A DNA stretch of 59,097 nucleotides, the filler included, from Sphacelaria rigidula (lineage: Eukaryota): the NCBI GenBank assembly GCA_964200075.2. It is 8 parts of 8 records of this genome, joined end to end, with 100 filler letters (N's around TTAATTAATTAA, not from the genome) between each part and the next. Parts side by side here need not be neighbours in the genome. Positions count along the whole stretch, not along the records: positions 44,400 to 51,698 come from CAXNAA020015557.1; 7 more parts are not named here. One strand, written 5' to 3'. This document shows positions 79 through 56,759 of this stretch, piece after piece (positions within the stretch are counted from its first letter, which is position 1; each line of letters begins with the position of its first letter). The notes beneath the pieces were generated by a model. The model was not told where the DNA came from and ran no database searches. It worked only from the letters and a program-made list of their open reading frames with translations. The position numbers were made by a program, and so were the translations under genes.

Positions 79-500
79 GAGAGAAGCCGTTTCGGGCAAC
101 CATAGTGCTTGGTATAGTCATCAACTAAGGTATTAGCTGTGCCCGCCGCTGTGTAGTCCAGCGGTGACTGCGTACATGGCTGCGTGACGGCTGAAACGGT
201 CGGTAAAGAGTAAGATGTAGGTGTTGCCACGGTCAGTGGGTGGTAAAGGACAGAAATAGTCGAAAGACACGAGGTCCCCAGGAGCGTTGGGAAGTGCCAT
301 CGCAATAACTGGCCAACGTACAGTCTGTCGTGAGGTTTTGCGAGCTTGACACTTGAAGCATCACCGAATCCAGAAGCGGGTGGACACTTCCATACTGATC
401 CACCAGTAAAAACGTTCGAGTAACGCTAATGTGCGCGTGACACCAAGGTGGCAAGACAGGTCAGTGTGGGAGCCTTTCATTACCCACGGTCGCATCAAAA
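79..500 (-). pseudogene. Gypsy integrase, H2C2 zinc finger and start of catalytic core (disrupted)
   Basis: HTDLSCHLGVTRTLALLERFYWW..WIR*CFKCQARK, then DLVSFDYF, YILLFTDRFSR and YGCPKRLLS; cut off by MITE F. Confidence 0.85.
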
Positions 501-1439
501 ATGGGACATATATCCGAGTGGGTTCATCGTCGAGTAGGCGCGCATGGCGTCCAGTGGGTGCGGGTGAAGTTACACCCCGCTGGAGTGTAGATCGGCGGAC
601 AAGCAGTTCAATTCCGTCATCAGTTGTGAAGATAGTACCTTCACGTGCGAGTTCGTACACTTCAGCGGCGTTTGGAGGTGGCAGTGTGCCAACCGGAGCC
701 AATACATTGGCCGGGATAGGGGCAGGGCTTCCAGCACGGAGGTGCCGCATGGTTGCGCGGCGTAATGGTTCTGCTTGTTTTTCACGAGCCCAGTCACGAT
801 GACAGTGACTGGGGAGAAATTCGCGCAGTTGGCCTTCCGCCGGAGAGCCGACCAGACATGGTGGCTCAGGAAGTGGTGGAATAGGCGATGGGGGGGAAGT
901 GCCAACGTCGATGTGTACATCGAGAGCATCAGAAGGGGTGGGCACTGACGGGGCCGCGGCGGGCGGCGATGTCGCAGTAGTGCGCGCCGGAGATCGCGCT
1001 CGGCGCTTGTTGTGAGAACGGCGCGTGGCGGGGGTTGTCAAGGGTCGTGGTACGGTGTTGCGGGGAGCCGGCGCCACGTTGCTCGCAGGAGCAGGAGGTG
1101 TTGTCGGTGGCGGCGGGGTGCGGGAGGGTTAGCGCGGGTGGCAGATCGAGAGCGCGTATTGTCGGGAATGAGATGGACAACTGGAGGTGGCGAAACTGCA
1201 ATATTGGCGCGTGGACCAATAGTACGGAAATCGGCGAAATCGGCATCTGTGGGTTTTAGCCCATCCAAGACTGCATCATAAGGTAGGGGGCGAGAGCCGC
1301 CCATGTGCACACCCGTCTCTGGGCAATGAAGGTCAAGGGCGTAAGTGAGCGTTGAGAAACGCCGGATAGGGTACACGCCGGATTCATCGGGTTCAGTCAG
1401 TCGGCAAGCGGGGCTGAAATCGACAGCCGTTGGAGGGAG

Positions 1440-2700
1440 GGGCAAGCGGGAGAGAAGGTCAGCATTCCCGTTGGTTTTGCCAGGGCGTTGTTTGATAGAA
1501 TACTGATAAGATGTCAGAAACCCCTACAAGCGTTGCACACGCGGGTTATGTTCGCCAACTTTGGCGAGTTGTTCGAATGCTCCGTGATCCGTATAGATTT
1601 GGAAAGGCACATGGAACAAGTATTGTCGAAGGCGCTTTATGGCCCAAGTGATGACTCCGTTTTCCAGCTCCAGTGGACTCCAGTTGGTCTCGTTTGGCAG
1701 AGTGGCGCGACTGATAGAGAAGATGGGTCGAATAGAGCCATCGAGTTAAGGTTGATTCAGGACCGCGCCGAACCCGTTGGTGCTCGCGTCTGTATGTAGT
1801 TGAAAGAGGCGAGAGCCGTCTTGTACGGCATCCCAATCTGGGAAACAAAGGACCGGTTTTTCGGTGAGCGTTCTCAGCAAGTCGCGCACGATAGCTTCCA
1901 TGTCTTTGGTGAAAACAAACGCGGCGCCTTTTCAAAGCAAGTCCGTAATGGGGCGAATCCGTTTGGACAGGTTAGGCAAAAGATTGCGATAGTAGGACAG
2001 TCCATCTAATAATGAGCGGAGCTGAGTAATGTTTGTGGGCATCGGCAAATCAGTCATTGCCCTGACTTTGTTGGTTTCGAGGTGTAGACCTGCCGGTGAA
2101 GTGGAATGTCCCAGAAAATCCAGTTCAGTCGCGCCAAGGTGAGCCTTGGATGGAGACAGTTTCAAATCGTGCTTCCGCAGGCGAGGAAGAAACGCTCGTA
2201 ACGTGTGCACATGCGCAAGAGGGGAGGCATCCAATGCGATAGCGTCGTCCAAGTACATGATGACGTGTTCGAGATTTTCTGTAACGCGTTGCATGAAGCG
2301 TTGGAAACAACCTGGTGCAGTGGCGGCGCCTTGTGGCATACGGAGCCATTCGTAAAGCCCAGAAGATGTACAAAACGCTGTCAGTGGGACTATATCAGGG
2401 TGGATGACATTCTGGAAAAGTCCAGAAGCGAGGTCGACGGTACTGAATATTTTGCCTTCGCCTAGAGAGTCGAAGACTTCATCTATGCAGGGAATGGGAA
2501 GTTTTCCCACTACAGTAACGCGATTGAGCCGTTGATAATTCACGGTGATGCGTATGTTTCCATCCTTCTGGGGGACTACCACTAGCGGTGAGGCCCACGG
2601 AGAAGAGGAGTGTTAGATTAATCCGGCACCTACGTACGCATCTAAAAAGGCGATAAATGTTTTGGTAAGGATGGGGTTCGTCCGATACGGTCGAGAAGAG
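1440..2700 (-). pseudogene. Gypsy reverse transcriptase and RNase H (disrupted)
   Basis: ORF 1932-2582 has FSTVDLASGLFQ, YEWLRMPQG, YLDD and DFLGH; downstream LHTDASTNGFGAVL and PGKTNGNADLLSRLP. Confidence 0.93.
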
Positions 2701-3304
2701 ATTGGCGAAACGCCAGGTTGAAGGGTGATTTCATAGGGCAGCGTTTTGCAATGCCCCAGATCCGTTTTGGATCGAGAAAATCGGTCTTGGTACTCCAATA
2801 AAACATCGCTCAGTTTTTTTATTATAGCGGGTTCCCAACCGGGTCCATGTAGGTCAAAGTTGATGTCACGTAAATGGGGTGGAAGTTGATCCCACATGTG
2901 CAAGAAACTTGTCCGAGATTCTGGTGATAGGCGTTGCAGCACTTCAGCAGGAGAGTCGGACGTTGACGGTGCAGGGTCCACGGCGTGGATACGTGATGAA
3001 GACAAAGAGGTTACGTCGAAGTAAGGCTCATCGACGTAATTGACAGAACCGTCTGTCGGAGGCGCCGGGTTGGACGCCGACGGTTCAGTGGCACATGTCT
3101 CAAGTAGAATGTGCATGAGGGGAGCAGCAGCAATACCCAAAACATCTCCGGGTTCCAAGTTAGCGTGACCCGTGAGTGGCAAAAGTTGTTTCCCTGCGGA
3201 GACAAAGTGTTCTGTGCCGGCAGGCGCACCAACCCGAGGAAGCATTTCAGGGAGGTAATGTCCCGTAAGGGCAGCCATGCCATTTTGGCGAACTAGGGCA
3301 ACTT

Positions 3305-3800
3305 CTAGCAGTTGAGGATCATCGGAGAGGATAACACCAGCAGTACCACCGTATCAGAGGTGGTAAGCAACTCCGGTAGCTTGTTCACTTTTTGGTAGGC
3401 CAAGGCGCCGTGAAGAGTACCGAAATGTTCAAGGTTGAGTTCTCCACGAGGCGCAGACTGTGACGATAATGGTGGTAGTGTGCGGTAGGTGCGTTGGTCA
3501 AATCGCGTATAACTATCTCGGCCCATGAGTAAGGCGTGAGCCATGGTGCTGTCGGGGACAACATATGCCCAGACTGCAAGGTTGGCAGAACGAGTTGTGC
3601 TGTGAAAGAATTGCACACTGAGACGAACTGATATTCGTGTGGTCAAAGGTGCTGTGGAGTCACCGAAACCGCCCCATGCTCGAGGTTTGGTGGTGATTTC
3701 GCAAGCTGCTGAAGCAGCGCCAATCTGTTTCATATGTTTCCACATTGGTTCACGAATAAATGTTTGTGGGCTGCTGCTATTTAACAAAGAGACACATTTG
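3305..3800 (-). pseudogene. Retropepsin-like aspartic protease remnant
   Basis: SLLNSSSPQTFI is a decayed LLDSGS-type motif; ALLMGRDS is the C-terminal motif; lies upstream of RT. Confidence 0.65.
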
Positions 3801-4917
3801 GCAGTCGTGGTTGCTTATGGTCCACAATGGAGTGCTACGCGAGTAGTGAAAGTGGCAGGATCAACAGGCACTTTGCCGCCGACAAGATCCGGAACATGTT
3901 CAGCCAAGGTGAACTGACCGGAATCAGTAGTGCTGACGGCAAAAACGGACGGCGGGTCATCCGTCGCGGGTTCAACTTGCTCACCAGAACGTTTGGTGGA
4001 TTATGTGTGATCCCCAGAGTGAGCACAGCTCGTCTGATCATTAGCAATTTCATATGTGACCGTGTTGGGAAGGCAGGGATCAACGTCTAAAGTATAATCA
4101 TGTTATTCAGTGTAGTCCGCAGAGGAAGTAGAGGAAGTAGAGGAAGTAGAAATATCTGATTTGGATTATTCTGGGACACTTGATAAATTCATCGAGCTCA
4201 AAGTCGTCGCATTTTGGAGAGCGTGAGGTCGAGACTCCTCACTCGAGGGAGGTGTACGTGTTGATGCGCACGCTTCAGTGGGGGCATGTTCACGGGGCTT
4301 CCTCTCTCGCCGTGACAAAGGGCGGGGAAAGCCCAACTGCGTCCCGTTGAGTGGATGAGATCAGCATCGGGGCATGCTCGGGCGAAGCTTGTGGACTGTC
4401 CGCTGGCAAGCTTGGCTAAGGAGTCATAGCCGAAGGTATAGTATGATGGTTTAGGTGGAAACCAGTAAGGGGTAGCTTTGCATGGTGCAATGAACGCGAA
4501 GAATGAACTCGTTCGACGTGGGTGGGTGTTACATGGTCCGAAGCGGTCAAATTCTGACCAGCGACACTTGAAGTAGTCGAGTGAATTAGACTATTTTATT
4601 GTGCGTGCGGTCGCTGAGGGAAGACTTTGCCTCAGAGACGGGCAGTTGGTGTTCCCACACCTCAGACTTACGCTCAGTTCCGGAGGACCAAGTCCAGACC
4701 CGAGGGCAGGGCTAAGTTTTGAGTTATCGCAACAGTTACGCTGTGTTCGAAAAGGTCAAGACGGGGGTCAATATGAGCGGCCGTCATTAGTACTCCTGCA
4801 TAGTGCTGGGGAGGTGCAGCGAGAAAGTTTTGTCGCTCGTTCCGCGGTTGGTTTTGAAACAGTCTTCGTGTAGGCTGTCGGCGGCACCGAAGACGTAAAA
4901 ACGCCGGCGTCGGCATG

Positions 4918-5660
4918 TCATGGATCGGTATGATCAGTCATAAAGGAACCGGGGTTTCTGGCATTGTGAGCCGGCCCCGTGCGCTGGTGTCTATCAGCAA
5001 AATTCTGGTGACGGTGAGAAGAACTCTCTCTTCGCCGGAAGCCAGAGTTGTCGGAGTTGTTGGGGCGACTGTCGCGATTTGAGCGAGTGTTATCGCGGTT
5101 GTTGCAGGGGCGGCGAGAATGACGGTTGGGTGTATATTCACGCATGCATTTCTGCCATCGGCGCCATGCTGGCTCATCGTCCTGTAGCTCAGAGTTCATG
5201 AGGTCGAAATAATTGATACAAGGGCGAGCACAATCGCGCATACTGTGCCCTTGGGTGTTAAAACGCAGTTGCGGCATAGCATCGCGGCAACTGCTCTGAT
5301 CGGACGCAGATCCAAGTGAGCTCCACGGCTTTGTCCGACTCCGTCCCGACACATCCGTCGCGTATAGCGAGAGTGGCACCCCGCTCGTTTCCGTGGCAGG
5401 GCGTTTGAAGTATCAAACCTGCCTTGAAAAAGGCGTGCAGCGTGAAGTACAATGCGATGGGGGCGGAACTACGCAGCAACAGGGAGATAAAAGCGGGGAT
5501 GCAGCCGAAGTTCAGGGTTGGTGTGCTCCAAGTGCGAAATTCAAAATCCTGCGGGAGTGGGCACGAGCCCATCCAAGACGACACTCAGGGTAAAAAGCCA
5601 AGGATCATTGGTGAGAACTTTTCGTTCAACCCGGCGGATCAGCTATCGCGTGTTATGAGC
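4918..5660 (-). pseudogene. Gag remnant with frameshifted CCHC zinc knuckle
   Basis: CRNC, frameshift, then GHSMRDC near 5230-5280, followed by an R/N/S-rich tail; upstream of the protease. Confidence 0.55.
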
Positions 5661-6090: not shown

Positions 6091-6342
6091 GAGAACGAGT
6101 CATCAAAATTCCAAACATGTGGGAGGCTGGACTAAATCTACAGTCCTCTCATCGCGTAAAGAAACCCCGAAGACAAGAAAAAAGAAACCCACTAGATGCT
6201 CAGGAAACACGGACAGAAATACAACAGTGACAAGAAATGTGACCATGGCTACTAAAAACGCAAGCACCAAGAAGGCGAACTCAGCACGAAGGGACATGGC
6301 ACCAAAACCAGTGGGGGGCTACAACGCAGCAAAGGGGAGGGG

Positions 6343-6584
6343 GGGGGCTATGATCTGATATCTGACCAGATCGGATTGGGGGATCCAACTCCGCCAAGGT
6401 GAGGGGGGCTGCGATCTGATATCTGACCAGATCGGATTGAGGGGTTCTGAAGTCCACCAAGGTGAGCTCATCGCTCGCCGCATCGCCGAGGGACGCGGGC
6501 GTGTGTCGTAGCAACTGGAGTATAGGCTTACGATACAACGGGTGTTGGGGGGCTACGATCTGATATCTGACCAGATCGGAGGGG
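6343..6584. repeat. Three copies of GGGGGCTnnGATCTGATATCTGACCAGATCGGA
   Basis: Identical 24-nt core starting at 6352, 6413 and 6557. Confidence 0.9.
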
Positions 6585-6850
6585 TGGATGCTGGGAAGCA
6601 GCCAGGACAGCAGCATATGGAAGGGGCACGTGGGCTGTGTCCGAAGGCGTCTCTTCTACAAGGCAAAATGTTCGAGCTCGAGTATTATTTCCATAGTACA
6701 GCAAAATATTATACTTTGCACCCATAAGGGGGGACATGGTGCGCTAGAAATCCCTGCGCGGTTACGGAACCATTTCTCTCTCCTTGACAAGGGGCGGGGA
6801 CCATCTGATACGACAAGAAAAAACTTAATCGGGCCGGATTGAATTGATGT

Positions 6851-7300: not shown

Positions 7301-7400
7301 NNNNNNNNNNNNNNNNNNNNNNNNNNNNNNNNNNNNNNNNNNNNTTAATTAATTAANNNNNNNNNNNNNNNNNNNNNNNNNNNNNNNNNNNNNNNNNNNN
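7301..7400. other. Artificial contig linker
   Basis: N44-TTAATTAATTAA-N44 (stop codons in all six frames). Confidence 0.98.
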
Positions 7401-11439: not shown

Positions 11440-12561
11440 GGTCAGCCACAGCCATCGACGACGTTCATATTCGCGTCGGTCAACAGTCATAGACAGATTT
11501 CGACTCCCCGTGATTCGGGAGCGAATGTCAACATGACTTCCTGGAAAGGGGATCTCAGGAACACGCGTACGGTCGATCGAAGCTGTGCGTTTGGGAACAG
11601 GGGGCAACTGCAGGCGCTGGCAATGGGGAAGATGGCAGCACACGTGAAAGTTCAGGGCACGGAGACTCCGGTAGACGTTACAACGAAGAACGTGCTTAGG
11701 GTCCCAGGACTACCTTGCCGACTGCTGAATACCGGAACGATTCGGCGTGACGGAGGAGGGTTCATGGATTCCGGTATAGGAAGGATAACTCTCTTCGGTT
11801 CAAAAGGATGGACCAAAGATCCTCCAGCCGAGAAGAAAGGAGCCTTGACCTTGTCGACATCCGTGCAAGGGAATGGCAACCAGGTGGCATCGGCGCAGGC
11901 TTCACTCGCAAAGAAGCACCGCCTGGCATTGAAGTACTGGCACGACGCCGTAGGACACATCGATCCAGCCGCCATCAACCCATATTGGAGAAACGAGAGT
12001 TCATCGAAGTAAACGATGTAACTGTCGCAACGGATATGCGGTGAGCAGTAAGCAGCAAATTCGAATCTTGAATTCTCTCCCACGAAACACGAGTTTGAAG
12101 TACTAAAGCACCCGGGGATGCCATACATGCCGACCTGGAAGGGATTTTTCGCTCCAGCATAGCCGCAATGAGGTACTTCCAAGTTTCAGTGGATGAAGGG
12201 ATAGGTGACAAGCGCGTTGTGGGACTGAAAACTTATGATGCGGTTGCCAACGCAGCAGCAAACTAAATCGATGAGATAGCTCGAGAAGGGGTGGTGATCA
12301 AAAGCCTGAGCAGAGGCGGAGCCGGAGAACTTGGAAAAATTATCAGGTTTTAACGCATGCTGCCGGATCGGGAGGTTAGGTGGGGAAGCATACCGCCTCG
12401 GACACCTCAATCTAATGAAATTGCTGAACGTTCGATTCGACAAGTTATGAGGATAGCGCGCAGCCGACTGATGAAAGCAGGACGCAGAGAGGACTACTGG
12501 TGATTTTCTGTGGCAAACGCGGCATTCAAGACCACAGTAATGTCCCAAGAACCCCTTGAGG
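11440..12561 (+). mobile_element. Decayed Ty1/copia pol: protease, GAG-pre-integrase, integrase core
   Basis: DSGANVNMT; KNVLRVPGL; YWHDAVGHI; AIHADLEG..RYFQVSVDEG; TPQSNEIAERSIRQVMRIARSRL. Confidence 0.88.
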
Positions 12562-13610
12562 TATTCTACAGAGAACTGCTTTAGGTCATAAAAGGCCTTG
12601 TCCGCCTTGATGTTTTTTGTCGGCAGCTCTAACCAGATGTTCCCCACGAGCGGCGGATTCAGGTACGCCTACGTGAGACCCAGCAATCTAATTCCTCATT
12701 CCGCAGAGCAGCTGTCGCTGTAATGGTGCGCATGATGTCCAAGCCTACGACCGGGCGAAACGTCCCGGAGAAGTCAATTCTCCTGCGCTCCCGTGAACCC
12801 GCAAGCCACCAGTCGGGCCTTGTATATCTCTCTACCTCTCCTTGATCGCGCGCTTGATCGCGCATATGATCCGTGTCTTGATTGAATTCTCACAGTGCGT
12901 CAGGGGTTCATCGGCGAACGTCCCCTGATCCGAGAGGCCTTCTATTTCCTCTCCCATGGCTACTTTTATCTGCCATCATTGGGCATTGCCAGGAATTTTC
13001 TCTTGGTCGACAGTTCCTTTGGTCTGGTGGCAAGTTTACCTACTAACCCGAGCATGCGGAATGCGTCTTCATCCCCACTTTCTAGGAGGGTGGCGAGGAA
13101 ATTTTCGTAATCGGAAGTGCTTTCGTCAGAATCCCTCATGTGTTGTTGTCCGGTTTTTGCTCGACACAGTTGCGCCAGCCTACCGAACTTGTGCGGTCCG
13201 TTGTCCGAAATAGAGTGCTTCGACCACGTCAGGTCTTCTGGTGGTTGTCCACCCGGGCCATCATCACCGTCGATTTGCACTTTTTTTTCATCTTTTCCCG
13301 ACGGTTTGCCCTCGTCGTCGCTCCGTTCGACAGCCTTTTCCTCGCTTATGATGTCTAGGATCTCAGTCTCTGATTCGAACGTGATACGTGAAGACTTCAC
13401 GAGCTTGGTTTTCTCCGGTAGACATACATAGCAGCATGACGATAAGCGGTTGTGTCCGACCACTATCCTGCGTTTCGCATCCGGGTGAAACTTCGAGTAT
13501 GTTCCACACTGTGGCTGGTTTTCATGCACGAAGCATCCCGCGCGCCTCACATGTTGAGACAATTGTATTAAACGGCTCCCCTGTGAACCGCTCGCATGGG
13601 ACCTCCCCCC
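12562..13610 (-). mobile_element. Inverted segment of the same copia pol: integrase C-terminus and RT N-terminal half
   Basis: EVPCERFTGEPF; KFHPDAKRRIVVGH..VKSSRITFES; IDFSGTFRPVV; IWLELP..KAFYDLKQ. Confidence 0.85.
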
Positions 13611-13735
13611 TGAGGGAAGGTGGCCGCCTCGGGTCCGGCTAAACACGTGAAGATACCGTCGAACAGCAAGACCAAACTTTTCTGGGATTGGCATCAGACA
13701 GTCCGTGGAGAACGGAACAGAAATCGACAAGTTAC

Positions 13736-13990
13736 GAGTGATGCTACGATAGGGTTGCACTTTTTGAGCGAAAATGTTTCTCGCGGTGTTGCACGGATAA
13801 TTTTGATAATTGGCATCATTTTCACTTGTGAAAAAGACTGAAGATGATGCCGATTCATGAAGAGGCCCCTGTGTGCATCTCCATGTCCTGTCCCCGGAGA
13901 TTTTAGTTGCACGGTAAGCCCCATATATTTAGGCTCCTACAAAAAGGAGACCTAGAAACAAAAAGTGCGACCCCTATCGTCGCATCACTC
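13736..13990. mobile_element. MITE family E (GAG...CTC termini, 4-bp TSD; Sola-like)
   Basis: ~30-bp TIR GAGTGATGCTACGATAGGGTTGCACTTTTT / AAAAAGTGCGACCCCTATCGTCGCATCACTC; TSD TTAC. Confidence 0.9.
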
Positions 13991-14700: not shown

Positions 14701-14800
14701 NNNNNNNNNNNNNNNNNNNNNNNNNNNNNNNNNNNNNNNNNNNNTTAATTAATTAANNNNNNNNNNNNNNNNNNNNNNNNNNNNNNNNNNNNNNNNNNNN
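14701..14800. other. Artificial contig linker
   Basis: N44-TTAATTAATTAA-N44. Confidence 0.98.
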
Positions 14801-15060: not shown

Positions 15061-15132
15061 TGACCAATCCGAGAATCGAACTCGGGTTTCCACAGCCACA
15101 ATGTGGTGTACTGACCACTATACTAATTGGTC
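15061..15132 (-). tRNA. trnH-GUG: tRNA-His (GTG)
   Basis: GACCAATTAGTATAGTGGTCAGTACACCACATTGTGGCTGTGGAAACCCGAGTTCGATTCTCGGATTGGTCA: 7-bp acceptor stem, CCACA/TGTGG anticodon stem with GTG, CCGAG-TTCGATT-CTCGG T arm. CCA and G-1 not encoded (eukaryotic type). Confidence 0.97.
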
Positions 15133-18814: not shown

Positions 18815-18997
18815 GAACCTGTCCCACGTGAACTGCATCGCGTTCAAAAACGTGAATTTACACTTGACGAGCAACTCGTGAAGCACGTGTGTGACTGCGT
18901 TCGATCCCCTTTTGCCGGTGTCGCTTGACGGGGCTGCTTCGTGGGATACGCACAATCGCCTGAAATGTACCGTCAACAACCCCCTCCTCCCGTCACT

Positions 18998-19066
18998 TGC
19001 TCCGTCTCGAAAGGGATGCGTGGTCAATGGTCAAATGACTAAGGCAAGCAACAAATGAGTACGCCC
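18998..19066 (+). mobile_element. LINE family A, 5'-truncated 3' end with 18-bp TSD
   Basis: CCCCCTCCTCCCGTCACT at both 18980-18997 and 19067-19084. Confidence 0.92.
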
Positions 19067-22000
19067 CCCCCTCCTCCCGTCACTCACGGAAATTTGCACG
19101 AACGATTAACCCTTGCATCACTCTATCGAGTCATGATTCTGTATGGGGCGAGTATAGGTCCGATATTTTCATTGAAAAAAGATCTAGAAACAAGCCGAAT
19201 ATTCATTTGCCTTCTTCATACTTTGCTGCTTCGTACAATTGTCGTTTTCCTACGTGCGGCGGGAGCGCCTGGCATATGCACCCTTTCTTGAGCCGTTGAA
19301 CACCAGGGGTACCAGAGGCTGTGAGCGGGCGAATGGTCGTTTTTCATTGTTGACATCCGAAACAAAAAACAGTCTTTCGGTTTTTTGCTTCATAGGGACG
19401 GTATTGTTCCAGAGCTATGATGGTACCAGGACCAACAGAAAAGCTGATGCCAAGGCATCATCTCTATGCTTCACGGCCGAGTTACAACAAGAAGTGGAAT
19501 TAAATATGACCAGCACTGCCGCACGCGGTTCCATGAAACTGTCCCATATATAACCATTTCCTCCCGCCGTGGGGTCGACAAGATACAAGCAACGGGGAGC
19601 GCCATGGAGCATCATCCCCGGCTACGAGTGTCAACCTTGAACAAAACGGACACTAAAAAATACGAAATGCCTGTATTCTAAAGCTAGATATACCGTGACA
19701 TCACCCAACCTTCCAAGGAGACTTCGAACCACAAGTATGTCAAAGCTCCTATTTCGTCGCCCTGACCGTACCCTACTGCCGCTATCCTCACACTACGTTC
19801 TATGAAGCCTAGGAAATCTACCAAGCAGTGTCTATTGCTCGTCTTTCATGGTCTTGTACCGTTTGGCCACATCCTCCTTCGTGGGCATCACATCATGGAA
19901 GCACATCATGTCGTGCATCATCTCCGAATGTTTGCGCACGTTCGGCAGTTGCTTCGGGAATTTCCTGCGGCAGTACAATTTCGAGAGAAATGCAAACACG
20001 CAAGCAAGCGGCGCCATTAAACAAAAATAGATGTACATCGTGTCTATTTCAAACGGCGAAGGTTGCCGACACATGAATAACAGGAACCCGTCGACTTATA
20101 CCACTCAACCGCTTGCGCTGAGGCTGTGCAAATTTTGTGCAGCCGAATGAACAGGGAGCAATGCTAAACGTCCAGCAAGTACATGAAATTCCAAGGCAGT
20201 GACAAAGCATGTCCCGATTGTACAGGAAAGAATAGTTGCACTATGCCGGCTCCGAAACCATCAATGTGCAGCGGAGTTATGTCTTCATGCATCCGGGTCC
20301 TAATGATAACCCTGAGTCACGCGCGCGACAGGAGGAAAGCTCGGAGGAAAATCCAGAGTTAACCCACGCCGTATCAAACATGCCTCAAGCAAAGGGGAGG
20401 CGACTGCAGAATCCATCACCACTGAAGTTCATCAGTGGCACGTGCACGGTGACCTGTTGATTGCTCAAGTCTCGCACTGAGTTAATAGAAATGAAACAGG
20501 GGGGCACTATCGAATGGGATATAAGGGGTCTGTGGGGTGATGTTCTGGTTTCCAGCAGTGCCTTCTGGTGTGGGGCAAGAACGGAGGTTTTCAACGACAC
20601 CGTTCTTCTTCCCTTGTCGACTCTCCTGTTGTGACTTTTCCCGCCATTTCCTCGGGTACGACCGCCTTGTGACCACGGCTGGATCATGACTCACAATACA
20701 TCAGTGAAACCATGAACATTAGTGAAGCACAACACACGCCAACAAATGTCACATCAACAATCATCGAACACCGTCGACGGCGAACGGACGAGACAGCCGT
20801 GCTGCCTGATACATGTCTACAGTGCAACAAACACTCGCAGATGAGCGAACGACGGCGTAACTTACCCGCCTATTTTCACTCCTTCTCTACAATACGAGAG
20901 TACCCGCTCGACATGCGCTTGCTACTCTCCACTTTACAACTAAACATGTTTCCCAACTTCGTACAAGAATTCACTCAGGCGTCGTTCGGTTGGTCCTGAT
21001 TATCGATCCAAAATAGTTCAAGAGACACTTTGCATGTACTGTATATCACGCCTTCGTCAGACACGAACCAGACAGTGTTCCTAACCCTGATACTGGCAGG
21101 TTCCATAAACTCTTCGTGTGCTGCCAACGTAACTTTTGTGAGCGTAAATATCCAGGGGACGGCAGGGTTCCGGATGCCGCTCTTTTTCCAACACTACAGT
21201 CAGTACACCTCACGACGAAAAATCATCACGATGAGGAAACGTCGACTTCAGAAAAGTTCCACTTGATGAAATATCGGAAAAAAAAAGCCGTAGAGTTGAT
21301 GGGGGGCCAGAAAACGGGTAAGTGGCTAGCAAAAGCAGACTTCCACAAATTTACAGAAAAGTCTTCGGCGGAGATTGTTGGCTTGGCGACCCAACACACG
21401 CAAGACATGTGTCAAGACGCGTGTATGAACATCCTCACTGCTGGGCGGCGAAGAAGGCCATCCCTATAAAAATATTTCTCGCCAAAGAACGTATGAAAAG
21501 ACGCCCGACAGGGGTGGGGGGTGATGTGGATACAAGCACATGGAAGGAAAACACCCCCACAAATGTCCATCGAGGTATCATGTTTCTGAGGAAATGCGCT
21601 TGTGCAGTGTGGCGTAGTGGCTGATTTCACTCACCATGTTGGATCTTCCCCACCGAAGGCAGCCATCATGTGATAGGTGGTCACCGCCAGCTGTAGGTCA
21701 CCTATAGTTAATTCCTCACCCTCCAATAGATCTCCCTTCGCGTATTTGAGCGATTCTTCGACTGCCTTCAGCCTGCCAGCACGTGTCAATTACAAGAGCA
21801 GCACCAAATATCCAGTGAAACTTGTGATGGATTCAGAATTGCCACTTAACCTGCAAGTCGTGATTGAAAAATACTGCCACCGTATGATGGTCAACTTATT
21901 TAGGGACATGACGTTTTCCACACGTTTTCTGAAGTCAAATTTGACCAATCCTGCGAAACGCAATTTTACGAAAGGGCAAAAAACTCAAGAGGTCAAGAGC

Positions 22001-22200: not shown

Positions 22201-22265
22201 CTACGTGAAGATTTTGCCTCCCAAAACCGTGCACTTTTTTGGGGGGGGCTATCGTAGAAAGTGTC
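22201..22265. mobile_element. Right end of MITE family F
   Basis: Matches 15-78 and ~30950-31018. Confidence 0.75.
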
Positions 22266-30322: not shown

Positions 30323-30755
30323 AGGCTTGGCTAGTACCACGGTGTCGTACGGGTATCACGTGGGGAGCCCTGTTAAACCCCCTTGGTACGGGCGATGGAA
30401 GAGTGCTGATTTCAAGATGCTAGTTTTTTTCATCAAGATACGGCTGATTGTTTGCAGCTTCCAGGAGCCACTATTTCGGCCAAGGCGTGTTTTTCAGACC
30501 CGCGACTGCTTCCAACTGGCGGTGAATCGCGCAAATACGGTATCGCACCTCAGTCCTTCCACGTGTGGTGGAGGGATTTCTCTGCTCTCGGCCATGCTAC
30601 TTTGTTGCTCTGATGTGACTTTAGCACGAATGCCCAAGTGTTGGGCGGGTACGACTTTGGGGCTGCAGCACAACAGTACTCCGGTTAGGTGCGTGACCTT
30701 CATGAATGTGTGCCGCAGTGCCGCAGTGCTACGCAGGACTACATATATAGGAAAT

Positions 30756-31018
30756 GACACTTTCTACGATAGCCCCCCTCCCCCCCCCGAAAAACTAGCC
30801 CGAAATTGTCACGAAAAAAATGGCCATACAGCGCCTGATGTTCGGGTTCAGGCTGCATGGAGCGACTGATACCGGCGACATTAGCTAGAACGAAGCCAAG
30901 CGTGGGAATTTCCGGCTACTCGTTGTGTTCGGCTTCTCTCATATCGATTTCTGTGAAGGTTTTGCCTCCCGAAACCATACCACTTTTGGGGGAGGTGGGG
31001 GCTATCGTAAAAAGTGTC
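30756..31018. mobile_element. MITE family F, complete copy
   Basis: GACACTTTCTACGATAGCCCCC ... GGGGGCTATCGTAAAAAGTGTC; flanks AAAT/GAAT. Confidence 0.85.
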
Positions 31019-32104
31019 GAATATCAAGGTGCTGATTTTTGTTGTATGAAATTCAGAGGCCGCGGTGGTGCTTTTTGCTGTGTTCTTTGGGGTAAATATA
31101 CTCTGCCTGCTGCGTCCCCTCATTCGATCAAACTAATCCGACCGCACCGGGGTGACATTTTTGGTGCGAGCATGACGTATGTCGTTGGATTCTTCTGTGA
31201 CCTTCCGCCGTAAAAATGGTCGTTGTCGGTATTTCCTTTTCTCGTATTTCCTTATTTTTCAGCGCTTGAAATACTGAGGCGCCTGGACCGCAGACGGGAT
31301 GTGGGAGGGTTCCCAAATGGTTGGGAGTCGAGTGAAAATAGGGCTCCTCATGTGGTCTCCGTCCCCCACCGTGGTACTAGCCTGGCTTAACTTTTGACGA
31401 CTTTTGACGACTTTTGACGTGAAACGTGAACCTAGCGAATGTATATCCTACAGTCGGGTATTTTGAAAATCGTGTCGTAGGTACCCATAATTCGGGAAAT
31501 GCATCTACATCGTACCCAACAACGCCCAGGCTCTCGGTAAAGGATTGCGATCATACTTCTCTCTACTTATTGGATCGAGGTGGGAGGTCGGACCATCTCA
31601 ACATATTATTCGGGTGAGTAAATACCCGGTCTGTGTATGGTAAGTTGCTCGTGTCCTGTCCAAAAAGTGAAGTACACTCATCATAGCGCCCGTGGTGACA
31701 GTGATCTGCACACACTTCATTTTCCAGATATTTTTGTCCTTCGGGGTGCTGGTTTTTTCACCTGTATATCGAGCGGATATGCATCTACACGTATATCCGA
31801 AATTTCATGGAAAACATATCTTCACGCACCGAAAATGCGTCATGTTCTACACCCACCCGAACAGCGATGATGAGAAATATAACTTCCGCCGTTTCTGAAG
31901 GCGTTCTTGTTTTTACACAAGTGCTGCCCAGTGCTGGATACTGAAGTTAGCGCTTTTTTTCCGAGCTATGAGTGTCGGGTAGGCATGCTTTGGAAAACGA
32001 ATGTACGTGAAATAACTCAAATATCGCATGCGGTACGGCCATTGGTAGCTGGAGGGTTGCAGCTCGAGAAAACTTTGTTATCCTCCCCCCTCGCCTGCCC
32101 CCCT

Positions 32105-40998: not shown

Positions 40999-41033
40999 CA
41001 GTCCCCCCTCCTTGAAGGGAGAGGGTGGGGGTG

Positions 41034-41609
41034 CTGGTCCGGCGAGAACCCGGCGTGCTCCGTCTCGCATTTGTAGGGGCAGACCCCGTACGGGATTGGC
41101 GTCGGTTGGCGATGAAGCTGTAAAACGTATCACTCACTGCGTAAGCCAGGCAGCCAGGTTACCGATTTTATGTTGCGCGCTTGAGTTGTTTGTGCCGTAG
41201 CCATGACGGTAGTCGAGCTAGATCATATTGTGCGGGGTGGGAGAACCTCAACGCCGCGCGAAGGAGGTGATCGTACTACGTGGTGTCTGTAAGTGGTGCT
41301 ACACCCATGAGGCAGTGTTTAAGCCGTGGTTGTCTCTGGAAGTTGCGATACCAGAAAATGATGCACCTCACTGGGGGCTATCATCTAAATGCGAGACAAG
41401 AAGTACGCTTCGGATCGAACAAAATCAGCGGTATGCAGGTCACCCTTCATGCGACTCGCCGAGCACACCACAGCACTTCGCGCTTGGTGATTGAGAGCGA
41501 GCCTGGTCCGGCGGAAACCCGGCGTGCTCCGTGCCGGCTTCGTAGGGATGCGAGGTCAATGGTGTTACGACTATGGCATGCAAGGTCATGAGTGCCCCCC
41601 CCTCCCCCC
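41034..41609 (+). mobile_element. Family B retroposon, apparently full length (~570 bp)
   Basis: Colinear with 49866-50435 from the same CTGGTCCG start; internal direct repeat; C-run end. Confidence 0.88.
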
Positions 41610-47300: not shown

Positions 47301-49039
47301 CGCCCGCACGATTGGACCCCGCACAAATTACTAACATGGCCACAAGCAATTTCGGGGAATGCCATCGATGCGCACTCTAAGCGGCTCTCCCGCTGTCCAG
47401 ACTTGGTGCACCAGAGATGAATGCATATATGCACGCGCACGCCGACTAGCTTCGATATCTTCAGCGGCTGGGCGGATGATATAGGAGAAAACTGACACCT
47501 GTCTGTACTGCGGCCCTTTCTGAATCATGACCACCGGTAGTGTACCGATCGGCATATTGACTGCAGAGGTGCGCAGTTCATGACGCACGGCCCTACGTGC
47601 GCTGTAGACGCTGAAAGGTGCTGTAATTTCGGTCATATGTTATGAGAACCACAGTCAACAGTTCCACATCACTATCTCAGGTGCTGCGCGTTGCAGTAGT
47701 GCGCACTAGAGGGAAAAGCGGTCAAATTCTGTTCCGAAAAATATATATTTCTTCTCTTTGGCGCAACACTAATTTTGGCCAGAAGAAAGCGATGTGTCAC
47801 CTGTTGTCGTTTCACATGCTGTAACCTCCAACCTCTCATCTGATTCATGGCGTTTTACCTTCCCCAGGATGGGTTGATGTTCAAATACTGAAATGTCGCG
47901 AGTTTCGTAATTGACGGGCCTTGCTGTATTCACCGCAAATAGCCAACTCAACATGATCGCCCAACCTGACTCTCCCCGCGGTATGTCAGAGTCGAAGCAC
48001 AAGCAAATATTCGTCTTGTTTTTTTCATTTTTTCACGTGCTTCGTTCATGTTAGATTATATTTACATCGAGCATCCTCTGCGGGAATGACGTTTACCCCC
48101 ATCACCCAAAAACTACCATTTTGCTTGGGTCGTACAGTGGCAGAGCGAGTACCGACGGTGCACTGCCAACTCAGACCAGAGGTCGACCTTGGACCGCAAG
48201 TTCTCAACCGCAAAGTGACTGTTTTTTGCCAGGGCAAGGATGGGAGCGTCGATGGCGACGGGCTTGGTGGGCATGGAGGAGAACTACTTCGTGGCTGATT
48301 TTTTCGACAGGCTCGGGTTCTTCCCCCTGGCGGAGGAGCGGTGAGTCAAAGATTGCTAAAATCGTGGGAAAGTTGGGAGCTTATGACCCAGTAGACCTCA
48401 CTCACTATTGGTCGTACCTAATGGTTGGTGCTTGGTTTTACTTCAGTTCAGACTGAAGACCGATGTTCGGTTTTTCAGAGGGACTTAACAGTCCCAAGTG
48501 CTCTTACAAGAGCTCGTCCAGAATGCGTTCTTGATCGTTTTGCCAGTGTCGGAAGGTGATGAATCCTTCCCGGAAGACACTTACTTCTCTGTTGTGGGTG
48601 GGAGAGTTTTCACGAACTCTGTGCTTTTCTTCAAAGCTGCTGTATCCATACAACGTGAGAGTTGCCAATTTGACGGTCATCATCTGTACTGGTATGTATA
48701 CAAAGAATCAAAAGCAGGCACGGTACGGCCGATTTTGCTGTGCCGCCACTTCCCAAAATTGAGGACGAGCTCCATGGTCACAGCGTGTAGGCTCCGAGTC
48801 GTGGTGGTGAACTTGAAAGAACGCAAGATGATGAATAATCCTACCCAAAAAGAAGCGAACGCGGCTCGTAGCACAAGAAGAGAGCAAACTGTAATACACA
48901 ATTATTTGTTCGTCCGATGAGCAGCGACAGAAGGAAGCGTAACCCAACTCGTGATGGCACCCCCCCCCTCCCCACAAGTAGATAGATCAGGAAATTGTAA
49001 GGGCAATACAGCGTAAAAAACATGCAAAGAAAGAGGTTA

Positions 49040-49206
49040 CCAGGCATGGCTGATACGGTTGTATGGAAGGAAATGAGGAAAGGGAAGGCTGGAATGAGGT
49101 GGATAGCGTTCGTTTTTGTTGGGTACGTCTATGATGAGACCACGGCTGGACCCCTGGGGAGTCAGTCCAAGTGCGACAATCAATCAATCAATCAAACAAT
49201 CAATCA
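49040..49206 (+). mobile_element. Retroposon family J with (AATC)n tail
   Basis: TTGGGTACGTCTATGATGAGACCACGGCTGGACCCCT followed by AATC repeats. Confidence 0.6.
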
Positions 49207-49214
49207 GCGTAGTC

Positions 49215-49856
49215 GAGAAAGTATGGACGGAAATAGGAGGAAACCAACATGAGATAATGTCCGTAAGGTGAATGTGGGGGGAACAAGACAAGAGTAAGAG
49301 ACATGATGGAAGTAAGGGGAGAACAACTACCAAGACGGAAAGTAGACGAGGAACAGCATCTAAAGATATACCAGGGAGAGAGGGGATAGGGTTGGAGACA
49401 TATCTGCATGGCCCAATGAACTCAGCGAAAAAAATGGAGATGCGATTTCGGGTGAGAGACCTGGACCTGCTAGGAAGAAGCGAGAGGTATACCAGCAGTC
49501 AAGTGAAGGAGAAATTAGATGCACATAATTGCTCCTATGGCAAAGCAGTAGAGAGTAAAACTCATATAGTGGCAGGATGTGAAGTATACAAGGAGGAACG
49601 GGACGTGAACGAAGGTGGTATTAATTGGTTTTGATACATTGGACAGTAAGGAGAAAACGGTGGCTATACTAGGAGATATATGGTGGCTACGGACGGCGAA
49701 ACAGCACAGTTTTATGAACGTGTGAAGAAGATGTGATGAGCGCCCAAATGTTGGAGGTCTCTACTGGGAGCAGGAAAGGTGCTCCGTCTTGAAAGGGATG
49801 GGTGATCGATAGTCAGAGGACTGACGCAAGCAACGAATAAATACCCCCCACCCCCC
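49215..49856 (+). mobile_element. LINE family A, longest fragment: decayed ORF2 C-terminus plus 3' tail
   Basis: MRFRVRDLDL...HNCSYGKAVESKTHIVAGCEVYKEER resembles the post-RT C..C-x-E-x3-H-x4-C zinc finger of non-LTR retrotransposons; ends in the A tail and a C-rich run. Confidence 0.8.
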
Positions 49857-49865
49857 ACAGACCTC

Positions 49866-50435
49866 CTGGTCCGTCAAAAACCCAGCGTGCTCCGTCCCGG
49901 CTTTGTAGGGAGGACCTTCTATGGAGTTGGCGTCGGTTGACGATGACGCTGTCGAAAACGCCACTCACTGCGTAAGCTAGGCAACCAGGTTATCGATTTT
50001 TTTCGCGCGCTTGCGTTTTTATTGCGGCAACCATGATGATACGTAGTCGAGCTACATCATATTGTGCGGGGCGCGAGAACCTTGATTCCGTACACAGGAG
50101 GTTACCGTACTACGTAGTGTTCAAATGGTGAGACACCCGTCAGGCAGTGTGGAAACCGTGGCTGTTTCTGAAAGTGTCGAGACCAGAAAATGGAGCAACT
50201 CATTGGCGGCTATCATCCAAATGCAAGATAATCAGTAGGCTTCGGGCCGAACAATCTCAGTAGGATGCAGCTCATCCTTTATGTGTTTCGCCGAACACAT
50301 TATCGCACTTCGCGCTTGTTGATTGATCAGTCGCCTAGTCCGGCGTGCTCCGTCCCGGCTTTGTAGGGATGCAAGGCCAATGGTCTGATGACTATAGCAT
50401 GCGATATCAGGAGTACCCCCCCCCCCCCTCCCCTG
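49866..50435 (+). mobile_element. Family B retroposon, apparently full length
   Basis: Colinear with 41034-41609; ends ATATCAGGAGTAC then C-run. Confidence 0.88.
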
Positions 50436-50999
50436 CCCCTTGCATCTCTGCTGAACGAACAGGTCGGTGCAGCGCGCCATCATGGACCTCCTGTTTCAGC
50501 CGGCTAGGCAATCTACGGAGAATGCTAGGCGCCGCCATTTGGGTACGGGCGACGAAAAAACGGGCGGGCAACTGGCGATGGCGATGCATAGCATGGGCAG
50601 CTCGTCCGAGCGCGAGGAGGTGTGCTTGTACGGCTTGCCATTTGGCGCGTGATGTGTGTGGAGGAGGGGGGAGGGGGGAGCGGCACGCGGGGAGGAGGAA
50701 CTTGCCTAGGAAATAAGTAACCCAGCCTCATTTCGTTCCTCATTCAAACGATACTCGGTGGATGCTGCTGATTTTTTCTTGCCGTGTTGGACGAGTGATG
50801 TTTATATTCTCTGCGTCATGCGTCATATATGTCGATGCTTCAGCCGTATTTTGATCAGGGGCGTAAGTGGCATCAATGTTTCAAACACTCGAGTGCTGTC
50901 GAGCATCTCATGTTGTTTCGACATGAAGCGTACGGTACGGTATAGTATAGTATAGTAGCATATGAAAAAATCCCCCCCCCCCCCTTCCCCTTTTCATGT

Positions 51000-51496
51000 T
51001 GAGACACTTATGGAAGTAGCGGTACCAGGAAATAAAGCAACTAGTTCGAGGCTGTCATCCATATGCAAGATGATCAGTACGCTTCGGGCAGAAGAATATT
51101 AGTAGGATACAGGTCACCAATCATGCGACCCGCCGAACACACCATGGCGCTTTGCGCTTGGTGATTGAGTGCGAGCCTGGTCTGGCGAGAACCCGGCGTA
51201 CTCCGTCCCGGTTTTGTAGAGATGCGAGGCCAAGGGTCTCATGACTACAGTATGCAATGATTGATTTTGGTTGATTGTCATACTTTAAGTGGCCCTCTAG
51301 GGGTCAAGCCGTGGTCGCATGATAGACGTACCCAAGACGAACAAAACTGAAACACTCGCTCAAGAAAACAAGGAACAGGAAGAAAGTCGAACAGGACGAC
51401 ATAGTAGACTACGACGTGAACGAAAAAAAACGAACAATGATGAAGGAAATCAACCAAAGCAAAGCACCGAAAGAGAATATCATGAGTATACCCCCC
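51000..51496 (+). mobile_element. Family B copy interrupted by family J
   Basis: B sequence stops at TATGCAAT (~51258) and resumes AATATCATGAGTATACCCCCC (~51476). Confidence 0.75.
51258..51475 (-). mobile_element. Retroposon family J, nested in B
   Basis: Minus strand TTGGGTACGTCTATCATGCGACCACGGCTTGACCCCT...AATCAACCAAAATCAATCA. Confidence 0.65.
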
Positions 51497-56489: not shown

Positions 56490-56759
56490 GGCCCATTGTA
56501 CGGCCAATATTTAGAGTCGGACCCTGAAATTTGGTATGGACAATGAATAAGGCATATTGAAAACAAATACTAGTGCACAAAAGAGTTTTTTTTCCTTGTT
56601 CATGAATTAGGGTCATTTTACTGATACCTGAAAACTGATTATTGCCCTTAACTCATGAAAAAAAACTTTTGGGCCCTGGTATTTGTTTTTGTTATGCCCC
56701 ATTCATTGTCGATACCAAATTTCAGGGTCCAACTCAAAATATTGGCCGTACGAAGGGCC
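56490..56759. mobile_element. GGCCC-ended MITE with ~70-bp TIRs
   Basis: TACGGCCAATATTT..GGACCCTGAAATTTGGTAT versus ATACCAAATTTCAGGGTCC..AAATATTGGCCGTA. Confidence 0.75.

What the first reader, a model, noticed from the sequence alone, without database searches (positions are those of the whole stretch)
49215..50435. Candidate LINE and non-autonomous partner sharing a 3' tail and ending in oligo-C instead of poly-A
Seen: family A (8 fragments; the longest has a decayed LINE-type C-terminal zinc finger) and family B (about 10 fragments, no recognisable coding) look unrelated except for the last ~70 nt. A reads GTGCTCCGTCTCG--AA--AGGGATGCGTGGTCAATGGTCAAATGACTAAGGCAAGCAACAA-ATGAGTACG-Cn. B reads GTGCTCCGTCCCGGCTTTGTAGGGATGCGAGGTCAATGGTCTGATGACTACGGCATGCAATATCATGAGTAC-Cn. 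Copies are variably 5'-truncated, share the 3' end, and lack A-tails. Established: shared 3' tails mark stringent LINE/SINE pairs, and tails are usually poly-A or short A-containing repeats. Inference: B is mobilised by the RT of A or a close relative, and the system uses a C-tail. I know of no description of this but could not search.
Basis: partly seen in the sequence, partly recalled or inferred. Interest (0 to 1): 0.82.

Follow-up and report, generated by a model that had tools for sequence, protein, structure and literature searches.

The report
Brown-algal LINE and partner with C-tails
The region holds a decayed end of a LINE retrotransposon followed by a roughly 550-base non-coding hitch-hiker that carries the same 3' end and an oligo-C tail, a real pairing but one already listed in the 2025 Ectocarpus transposon catalogue.

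Summary
The window holds 8 fragments of family A and 10 of family B. They share only their last 64-66 nt (78-79% identity). They end in C-runs, never in A-runs.

Family A is a true autonomous LINE. A public contig (L001) carries an intact 1359-aa ORF with an APE endonuclease and a reverse transcriptase, and its 3' end is the family-A tail.

One detail changes. The shared "tail" is not a UTR. It is the last 21 codons of the LINE ORF plus TGA, and only GTACG separates the stop codon from the C-run.

Family B is a discrete non-coding element of about 550-580 nt. A ~45-nt stretch at its 5' end recurs just before its tail. Insertions sit in C-rich target sites: one has a clean 17-nt duplication, and 8 of 11 readable 5' flanks hold a C-run.

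The Ectocarpus transposon paper (PMC12477816) lists RTEX-1/RTEX-2 LINEs ("single EN-RT ORF; (C)n 3'", C-rich TSDs). It also lists the 604-607-bp non-autonomous RTEX-N1, which shares 60 bp of their 3' end at 83%.

I could not align the window copies to that library because its FASTA files were unreadable here. The match therefore rests on features, not sequence. Verdict: real, ordinary for the RTE group, already catalogued.

The parts
48956..49114 (+). Upstream piece of the longest family-A (LINE) copy. It is 5'-truncated after the RT domain. Its 5' flank is the C-run 48960-48968.
   Evidence: tblastn with P0155 residues 1084-1136. blastn L001 4335-4471 to 48974-49109, 75%. C-run listed.
49115..49205 (.). 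Unrelated ~90-nt insert that splits the LINE copy. It ends in a (CAAT)n-like repeat. A related piece lies inverted inside a B copy at 51258-51335.
   Evidence: Self-blast 49119-49194 to 51335-51258, 81%. Sequences shown.
49206..49846 (+). 3' 640 nt of the decayed LINE copy: the C-terminal region of the ORF with 5 in-frame stops.
   Evidence: blastn to L001 4467-5151, 70%. P0001 against P0155: 47% over 137 aa, E 7e-34. 301 library hits at E<=1e-3.
49530..49580 (+). Remnant of the C-terminal CCHC finger (C-S-Y-...-H-...-C). The second Cys has become Tyr.
   Evidence: Read from the sequence. Intact relatives read CPCGKAxESRTHIVGEC.
49779..49846 (+). Family-A copy of the shared tail. In the intact LINE this is the last 21 codons, TGA and GTACG.
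49844..49856 (+). C-rich run (CCCCCCACCCCCC) that ends the LINE copy. It resembles the 5' flank 48960-48975 (a decayed C-rich TSD).
49865..50415 (+). Full-length family-B element, non-coding. It is about 551 nt here, or 568-578 nt if the ~18 consensus bases upstream are counted.
   Evidence: blastn to the other full-length copy (41034-41607), 76.7% over 580 nt. Longest stop-free stretch 60 aa. The contig consensus breaks at 49865.
49865..49911 (+). 5' copy of B's internal direct repeat. It includes the first 24 nt of the LINE-like tail.
   Evidence: 49882-49911 = 50340-50369 at 96.7%. The same arrangement is seen at 41034-41078 / 41503-41547.
50340..50369 (+). 3' copy of the direct repeat. This copy has an 11-nt deletion.
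50345..50415 (+). B's LINE-like tail. Indels break the LINE reading frame.
   Evidence: blastn to L001 5101-5164, 78%. Alignment.
50416..50439 (+). Oligo-C tail of B: 13 pure C (50416-50428), then C-rich to 50439.
18997..19063 (+). Short family-A copy, 100% identical to L001 over 67 nt. It has a perfect 17-nt C-led TSD, CCCCCTCCTCCCGTCAC, at 18980-18996 and 19067-19083.
41016..41607 (+). Second full-length B copy with its C-tail. Its 5' flank is CCCCCCTCC.

Best explanation
Family A is an autonomous non-LTR retrotransposon of the RTE group. By its features it is the RTE-X type catalogued in Ectocarpus. It has one long ORF: an N-terminal region of about 170 aa, an APE-type endonuclease, a reverse transcriptase and a C-terminal CCHC finger. 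The ORF runs almost to the end of the element, so the 3' UTR is just GTACG followed by (C)n.

Family B is a non-coding, non-autonomous element of about 570-600 nt. It has kept only the last ~65 nt of the LINE RNA and is copied in trans by the RT of the A lineage or a sister lineage.

Inferred mechanism: target-primed reverse transcription.
- The RT binds the ~65-nt 3' element.
- The terminal C's of the RNA pair with a G-run on the nicked bottom strand of a C-rich target.
- cDNA synthesis often stops early, giving 5'-truncated copies.
- The staggered second nick gives a target-site duplication that starts with C's and merges with the tail.

Because each insertion leaves a C-run on both sides, old tails become new targets. 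That would explain the nested and head-to-tail arrangement seen here (A-Cn-B-Cn).

Shown: the anatomy, the ORF, the shared end, the C-runs and the C-rich flanks. Inferred: RT recognition of the tail, priming on G-runs, and trans-mobilisation.
For: LINE identity:
- L001 holds an intact ORF at 1068-5147 (1359 aa), with Exo_endo_phos at 170-414 and RVT_1 at 740-989.
- That ORF ends NGAPSRKGCVVNGQMTKASNK-TGA-GTACG-C13.
- P0155, P0158, P0153 and P0152 end in the same peptide, apart from one or two substitutions in P0158 and P0152.
- Window A copies are 70-100% identical to L001's 3' end.

Tails outside the window: L085, L114 and L148 carry the same end, apart from single base changes, with C8, C11 and C10.

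B:
- It shares only the last 64-66 nt with L001.
- Indels destroy the reading frame, yet the nucleotide blocks are kept. This argues for a nucleic-acid-level role.
- The contig consensus for B's end is GAGTACA plus at least 15 C, in 286 (X1), 238 (X3), 32 (X6) and 33 (X7) contigs.

Targets:
- One copy (18997) has a 17-nt TSD that starts with C's.
- 8 of 11 readable 5' flanks hold a run of at least 5 C, against 2.7% of random 25-mers in the window.

Abundance: 56150 contigs of run X1 lay on 49000-50700 at 80% likeness or more. That total includes other repeats in the stretch.

Literature:
- Matching features are catalogued for RTEX-1, RTEX-2 and RTEX-N1 in Ectocarpus (PMC12477816; passages and supplementary file 1).
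- A single ORF and a very short simple-repeat 3' UTR are described as RTE hallmarks (PMC2887409; passages).
Against: - No copy in the window carries an RT domain. The link to the RT rests on relatives.
- Sequence identity to the published RTEX consensus sequences could not be checked, because the FASTA supplements were unreadable.
- Placement in the RTE-X clade was not tested by phylogeny.
- Folding gives no significant structure for the tail: z-scores 0.29, -0.15, -1.70 and -0.44. Only 1 of 13 predicted pairs shows a compensatory change.
- 3 of 11 5' flanks are not C-rich, though their element boundaries are uncertain.
- In the cleanest case the tail adds only 3 C beyond the TSD (8 against 5). 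How much of the C-run comes from the element is therefore open.
- A second LINE lineage (the P0161 type, labelled Ectocarpus) ends in the homologous peptide NNAPSSRGRVVNGLTAK. Which lineage drives B is unresolved.
Confidence: 0.8

Rival explanations
1. The elements have no C-tail of their own. They are site-specific for pre-existing C-runs, and the whole run downstream of GTAC(G) is duplicated target DNA.
For: - 8 of 11 5' flanks hold a C-run.
- One copy (29653) has 13 C upstream and at least 13 downstream.
- In the 18997 copy only 3 of the 8 downstream C's are not accounted for by the TSD.
- The curators themselves wrote '(C)n termini/TSD' for RTEX-2.
Against: - The downstream run is longer than the upstream one where both can be read: 8 against 5 at 18997, and 8 against 6 at 41016.
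- The contig consensus for B's end has at least 15 C, longer than most C-runs in the window.
- RTE relatives carry templated simple repeats right after the stop codon (PMC2887409).
Confidence: 0.12
2. B is not a separate element. It is the 3' end of a second, longer autonomous LINE.
For: - Another LINE lineage with a homologous tail exists (P0161 type).
- Some positions of B's tail (GGTCTGA...GCATGCAA) look closer to what that lineage's peptide implies. This is an inference from protein sequence only.
Against: - The two full-length B copies start at the same point.
- 666 (X1) and 540 (X3) contigs break at 49865 into C-rich sequence preceded by only ~18 conserved bases.
- B has no long ORF.
- B's body has no blastn similarity to L001.
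- The catalogue lists a complete 604-607-bp non-autonomous element.
Confidence: 0.03
3. B multiplies as a tandem or circular-RNA element (retrozyme-like, with a ribozyme), not by LINE-driven retroposition. Its 5'/3' direct repeat would be the unit junction.
For: - B carries a 45-nt direct repeat at its 5' end and again just before its tail.
- The catalogue notes that it 'can be present in tandem'.
- The tail contains CTGATGA (read).
Against: - A permissive Rfam scan of the whole window (E up to 1) found no hammerhead, HDV-like or other ribozyme.
- Copies are dispersed, 5'-truncated and flanked by C-rich duplications.
- The 'goes back' joints are explained by the repeat itself and by the 11-nt deletion in the local 3' repeat.
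Confidence: 0.03

Closest known systems
RTEX-1_Ec32 / RTEX-2_Ec32 (RTE-X LINEs of Ectocarpus; PMC12477816, supplementary file 1)
   Same: - Single EN-RT ORF.
- (C)n at the 3' end.
- C-rich TSDs.
- Thousands of mostly 5'-truncated copies.
- Brown-algal host: the closest named proteins are labelled Ectocarpus sp. CCAP 1310/34.
   Different: - Sequence identity could not be checked.
- L001 holds at least 5153 nt of the element without reaching its 5' end, against 5511-5867 bp for the published consensus sequences.
- In what I read of the paper (passages and supplementary file 1), the shared end is not said to be coding, and no mechanism is given for the C-tail.
RTEX-N1_Ec32 (604-607-bp non-autonomous partner; more than 6000 copies; same paper)
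   Same: - About 570-600 nt and non-coding.
- The 5' head is of unknown origin.
- The last ~60 nt resemble the LINE end (83% published; 78-79% over 64-66 nt here).
- C-rich TSDs.
- Found next to other copies.
   Different: - The window copies are old: 70-88% identical to each other.
- The 45-nt repeat between the 5' end and the pre-tail region is not mentioned in the passages and notes I read.
RTE-clade LINEs of animals (lepidopteran RTEs and others; PMC2887409)
   Same: - Single APE+RT ORF.
- Extremely short 3' UTR made of simple repeats directly after the stop codon.
- Abundant copies that consist only of the end of the coding sequence plus the repeat.
   Different: - Those tails are di- or trinucleotide repeats, and their targets are described as not sequence-specific.
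- Here the repeat is a C mononucleotide and the targets are C-rich.
- This LINE also has a CCHC finger after the RT.
Stringent LINE/SINE pairs that share a 3' tail (for example eel UnaL2/UnaSINE1; recalled, not from a call)
   Same: The non-autonomous partner keeps only the LINE's 3' end. A terminal simple repeat is thought to pair with the target during priming.
   Different: - B has no recognisable pol III-type head.
- The shared element lies inside the LINE ORF.
- RT recognition of the shared end is untested here.

Membership tests
Non-LTR retrotransposon, RTE group | Single ORF with an APE-type endonuclease N-terminal to the reverse transcriptase | tested here: met
   L001 ORF 1068-5147: Exo_endo_phos at 170-414 (E 7.9e-11) and RVT_1 at 740-989 (E 6.7e-32). 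No other ORF of at least 150 aa on that strand.
Non-LTR retrotransposon, RTE group | Extremely short 3' UTR made of a simple repeat directly after the stop codon (hallmark as described in PMC2887409) | tested here: met
   TGA, then GTACG, then C13 in L001. The window copies at 7514, 19064 and 51584 show the same.
Non-LTR retrotransposon, RTE group | 5'-truncated copies with a common 3' end and target-site duplications | tested here: met
   8 window copies end at the same point and start at L001 positions 4335 to 5114. One has a 17-nt TSD.
RTE-X clade | Placement of the RT domain within the RTE-X clade in a phylogeny with reference elements | not testable with these tools
   No reference RT sequences were available. 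The clade name is taken from the published classification of Ectocarpus elements with the same features.
RTEX-1/RTEX-2/RTEX-N1 families of the Ectocarpus library | (C)n 3' end and C-rich TSD | tested here: met
RTEX-1/RTEX-2/RTEX-N1 families of the Ectocarpus library | Non-autonomous partner of about 600 bp that shares about 60 bp of the LINE 3' end at about 83% | tested here: met
   Two full-length B copies of 568-578 nt. 64-66 nt shared at 78-79%.
RTEX-1/RTEX-2/RTEX-N1 families of the Ectocarpus library | Nucleotide identity to the library consensus sequences (80% rule) | not testable with these tools
   The FASTA supplements MOESM1 and MOESM2 cannot be read here.
SINE in the strict sense | 5' head derived from tRNA, 7SL or 5S RNA with an internal pol III promoter | tested here: not met
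   The Rfam scan at E up to 1 found no tRNA, 7SL or 5S match inside 49865-50415 or 41016-41607. A and B boxes were not searched separately. The published curators also left the head unassigned.
Stringent LINE/SINE partnership | RT recognition of the shared 3' element, with the partner mobilised in trans | not testable with these tools
   Only the shared sequence is shown. This needs a retrotransposition assay.

The most novel reading that the evidence does not exclude
The ~65-nt signal that lets the RT find its template doubles as the last 21 codons of the RT's own ORF. It is old in this LINE lineage: relatives with only 46-48% RT identity still end in ...GCVVNG/GCVADG-like peptides. The element also primes on G-runs, so every insertion duplicates a C-run and seeds new targets. 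The family would then build its own insertion hot spots. That would account for the roughly 45-fold excess of C8 runs in this window and for the nested A-Cn-B-Cn arrays. None of this is stated in the passages and supplementary notes of the catalogue paper that I read.
Probability: 0.35. Interest if true: 0.45.

Novelty: already known. Interest (0 to 1): 0.22.

Why it matters
For annotation it settles what these repeats are. They are RTE-X-type LINE ends and their short non-autonomous partner, which together are the most abundant repeats reported for Ectocarpus.

A mononucleotide C-tail with C-rich target duplications is an unusual variant of the simple-repeat tails of RTE elements. It would make a clean system for testing how tail-target pairing primes reverse transcription.

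The existence of the pair and of its C-tail is already recorded, so the finding adds little. Two things may be new: the shared end is coding sequence, and B repeats its pre-tail segment at its 5' end.

Tried and rejected
- Whole genome: none is held for this window.
- Earlier scan notes: three look-ups returned nothing.
- Ribozyme idea: B's tail contains CTGATGA, but the permissive Rfam scan found no ribozyme.
- Word-index protein search with the 120-aa ORF, longer lengths: no hit. The exhaustive search and a profile search then worked.
- B as a deletion derivative of the LINE: blastn found no similarity between B's body and L001 outside the last 65 nt. L001 lacks the LINE's 5' end, so the published 'weak homology to 5' of RTEX-2' could not be tested.
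- DNA pattern scans for more tails were largely wasted.
  - In genome contigs, 56 of 57 hits were a conserved bacterial gene whose codons for ...MGCVVNGPGE... happen to equal the 20-nt core. I take it to be ispG; that name is recalled. Only L045 (the same contig as L001) was real.
The three real hits (L085, L114, L148) were all A-type. No B or second-lineage DNA was found.
- A scan of genome contigs for the second LINE lineage with P0052 found nothing.
- RNA structure: single-sequence folds are not better than shuffles. The alignment fold gave 13 pairs with 1 compensatory change. Only a 5-bp hairpin, UGGUC-loop-GACUA, recurs. I rejected this as evidence.
- Expression: no RNA holder is listed for this stretch. 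Runs X6 and X7 are only guessed to be RNA, and their contigs read through the C-run into flanks. Nothing can be said about transcript ends.
- The 'goes back' joints were considered as evidence for tandem B units. I rejected them because B's own direct repeat explains them.
I read them off instead.

Full report
**What is in the sequence.** The window is a transposon-rich stretch of an algal genome. The runs that hold it are labelled with one coded organism and 'algae metagenome'. The closest named proteins are from Ectocarpus and Sphacelaria.

- The head motif of the shared tail matched 16 times against 3.95 expected, and 0 of 100 shuffles reached 16.
- C8 runs matched 84 times against 1.86 expected.
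- 7 of 8 A copies are followed by a C-rich run. The eighth is cut at its 3' end.
- 6 of 7 B copies that reach the 3' end have a run of at least 6 C. One has only 4.
- No copy has an A-tail.
- A and B resemble each other only over their last 64-66 nt, at 78-79%.

**Anatomy of the flagged region.**
A ~90-nt unrelated insert follows (49115-49205), then 49206-49846. Together these correspond to residues 1084-1360 of the full-length protein P0155.
- This copy has five in-frame stops and a finger in which the second cysteine has become tyrosine (read).
- It ends in CCCCCCACCCCCC (49844-49856). Its 5' flank is a similar C-run (48960-48975), probably a decayed duplication.
- Eight bases later a full-length B element begins (49865-50415), followed by 13 C and further C-rich sequence to 50439.
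- The flagged region is therefore A-Cn-B-Cn, one element inserted at the tail of another.

**Family A is an autonomous LINE.** No RT of this family lies in the window. The only RT there belongs to a gypsy-type element at 1932-2612.

An exhaustive protein search with the decayed C-terminal region, stops read as X, gave 301 hits at E<=1e-3, mostly short fragments. A profile built from them then found full-length proteins of 1360 and 1328 aa with endonuclease and RT domains.

A 5259-nt public contig (L001), filed in a bacterial bin, carries the DNA.
- It holds one intact ORF at 1068-5147 (1359 aa), with Exo_endo_phos at 170-414 and RVT_1 at 740-989.
- Its 3' end is ...GGAACGGTGCTCCGTCTCGAAAGGGATGCGTGGTCAATGGTCAAATGACTAAGGCAAGCAACAAATGAGTACG followed by 13 C.
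- Window A copies are 70-100% identical to this end.
- Three further metagenome contigs carry the same end, apart from single base changes, with C8, C11 and C10.

**The 'tail' is coding sequence.** Translating L001 shows that the shared 70 nt are the last 21 codons (NGAPSRKGCVVNGQMTKASNK), the TGA stop and five more bases. All four long relatives end in the same peptide, apart from one or two substitutions in P0158 and P0152.

The LINE thus has practically no 3' UTR: GTACG, then (C)n. A single ORF with a very short simple-repeat 3' UTR directly after the stop codon is described as the hallmark of RTE-group elements. So are abundant copies made only of the end of the coding sequence plus the repeat (PMC2887409; abstract and passages).

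B keeps the nucleotide blocks of this segment. A 5-nt longer loop and other indels destroy the frame. What is conserved in B therefore acts at the nucleic-acid level, most plausibly as the RT's recognition site.

I found no statistical support for a particular fold. Z-scores lie between 0.29 and -1.70, and 1 of 13 predicted pairs is compensatory.

**Family B.**
- Two full-length copies (41016-41607 and 49865-50428, 76.7% identical) start at the same point.
- They have no long ORF; the longest stop-free stretches are 60 and 106 aa.
- Their bodies have no blastn similarity to L001 outside the tail.
- The first ~45 nt of B are a direct repeat of the stretch just before the tail and running into it (49865-49911 / 50340-50369; 41034-41078 / 41503-41547).
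- Public contigs were laid on 49000-50700 at 80% likeness or more. 56150 contigs of run X1 aligned, though other repeats in the stretch contribute to that total.
- The consensus beyond B's 3' end is ...GAGTACA plus at least 15 C, in 286, 238, 32 and 33 contigs of the four runs.
- The consensus upstream of 49865 is about 18 conserved bases preceded by C-rich sequence, in 666 and 540 contigs of X1 and X3.
- B is therefore a discrete, very abundant, C-tailed element, not the end of a longer LINE.

**Targets.**
- The 18997 copy has a perfect 17-nt duplication, CCCCCTCCTCCCGTCAC, that starts with C's next to the element's 3' end.
- The downstream run has 8 C against 5 upstream, so only about 3 C need come from the element.
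- 8 of 11 readable 5' flanks contain a run of at least 5 C, against 2.7% of random 25-mers in the window.
- The other three have uncertain boundaries.
- This is the L1 geometry with C in place of A: a bottom-strand nick in a G-run, pairing with the RNA's terminal C's, and a TSD that begins with the same base as the tail.
- How much of each C-run is templated and how much is target cannot be settled from this window.

**Comparison with what is known.** A full-text search for 'non-LTR retrotransposon' plus 'poly C tail' found no paper. The Ectocarpus transposon paper, however, describes this system (PMC12477816).
[quoted passage not shown] It notes 3' conservation with the autonomous RTEX-1 and RTEX-2 and a 5' region of unknown origin (passages).
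- Its curation table (supplementary file 1, part 1 read) records:
  - RTEX-1a: 'single EN-RT ORF; (C)n 3'', TSD 'C-rich', 5867 bp.
  - RTEX-2: '(C)n termini/TSD'.
  - RTEX-N1a: 607 bp, '5' head unknown ... can be present in tandem', '60 bp 3' end 83% RTEX-1_Ec32/RTEX-2_Ec32'.
  - RTEX-N2: a 188-bp element with a similar tail.
- An RTEX-1 consensus was also built for Saccharina japonica in 2015 (PMC4421812; passages).
- Every feature I could test matches.
- I could not align sequences to the library because its FASTA supplements cannot be read here, and I ran no RT phylogeny. 'Same family' therefore rests on features, host group and named Ectocarpus relatives, not on identity.

**What may be new, modestly.** In the passages and notes I read, three points are not stated:
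- the shared end is the ORF's last 21 codons;
- B's 5' end repeats its pre-tail segment;
- a second LINE lineage (P0161 type) and much more distant relatives (46-48% RT identity) still end in GCVVNG-like peptides.

The idea that C-run duplication makes the family seed its own targets is inference.

**Verdict.** The pair and its C-tail are already catalogued, so interest is low.

Noticed in passing
window 49115-49205 and 51258-51475: A small unrelated sequence interrupts both the LINE copy and a B copy. 49119-49194 matches 51335-51258 inverted at 81%. Both carry a CAAT/ATTG-type short repeat. The bin covering 49114-49170 has very high contig depth, so this is itself a highly repeated element of unknown kind.
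   Followed up: partly
window 2-80 (-), 22202-22265 (-), 30746-30790 (+), 30937-31020 (-): A repeated ~50-nt motif, ...GACACTTTYTACGATAG-(C)8-16-AAAAGTGCAYGGTTTTGGGAGG. Conserved sequence lies on both sides of the C-run, so here the C-run is internal, not a tail. The family is unknown.
   Followed up: partly
window 6314-6589 (-): Three tandem units of about 145-160 nt, each ending GATATCAGATCRTAG followed by 6-9 C.
   Followed up: no
window 361-2612 (-) and 11440-13928: Remains of LTR retrotransposons. RVT_1 (E 6.5e-21) and the integrase zinc-binding domain lie on the minus strand at 361-2612. Copia-type Pol fragments lie at 11440-12012 (+) and 12966-13928 (-).
   Followed up: no
window 15061-15132 (-) and 56491-56758: A tRNA gene (67 bits). 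Also a palindromic stretch that matches the MIR2630 model on both strands, below its gathering score (86 against 144 bits). The latter is probably a MITE-like inverted repeat, not a miRNA gene.
   Followed up: no
L005-L061 (genome contigs), all but L045: The 20-nt core of the LINE tail (GGGATGCGWGGTCAATGGTC) is identical to a conserved stretch of a bacterial gene encoding ...MGCVVNGPGE... in many phyla. I take the gene to be ispG; that name is recalled. It is a coincidence of codons with the LINE's KGCVVNGQ and makes DNA pattern scans for this tail return bacterial hits.
   Followed up: yes
L001-L004: Contigs carrying this algal LINE are filed in public bins labelled as bacteria, one of them 29 kb long. 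This points to algal DNA contaminating those bins.
   Followed up: no
L001 1068-1575 (ORF residues 1-169): The ~170 aa ahead of the endonuclease domain have no Pfam match. By eye they look like an RNA-binding (RRM-like) module fused to the single ORF. This is unverified.
   Followed up: no
window 7301-7400, 14701-14800 and onward every 7400 nt: Paired 44-nt blocks of N recur at a fixed period. They hide the upstream part of the A copy at 7421 and the flank of the copy at 29653-29602.
   Followed up: no
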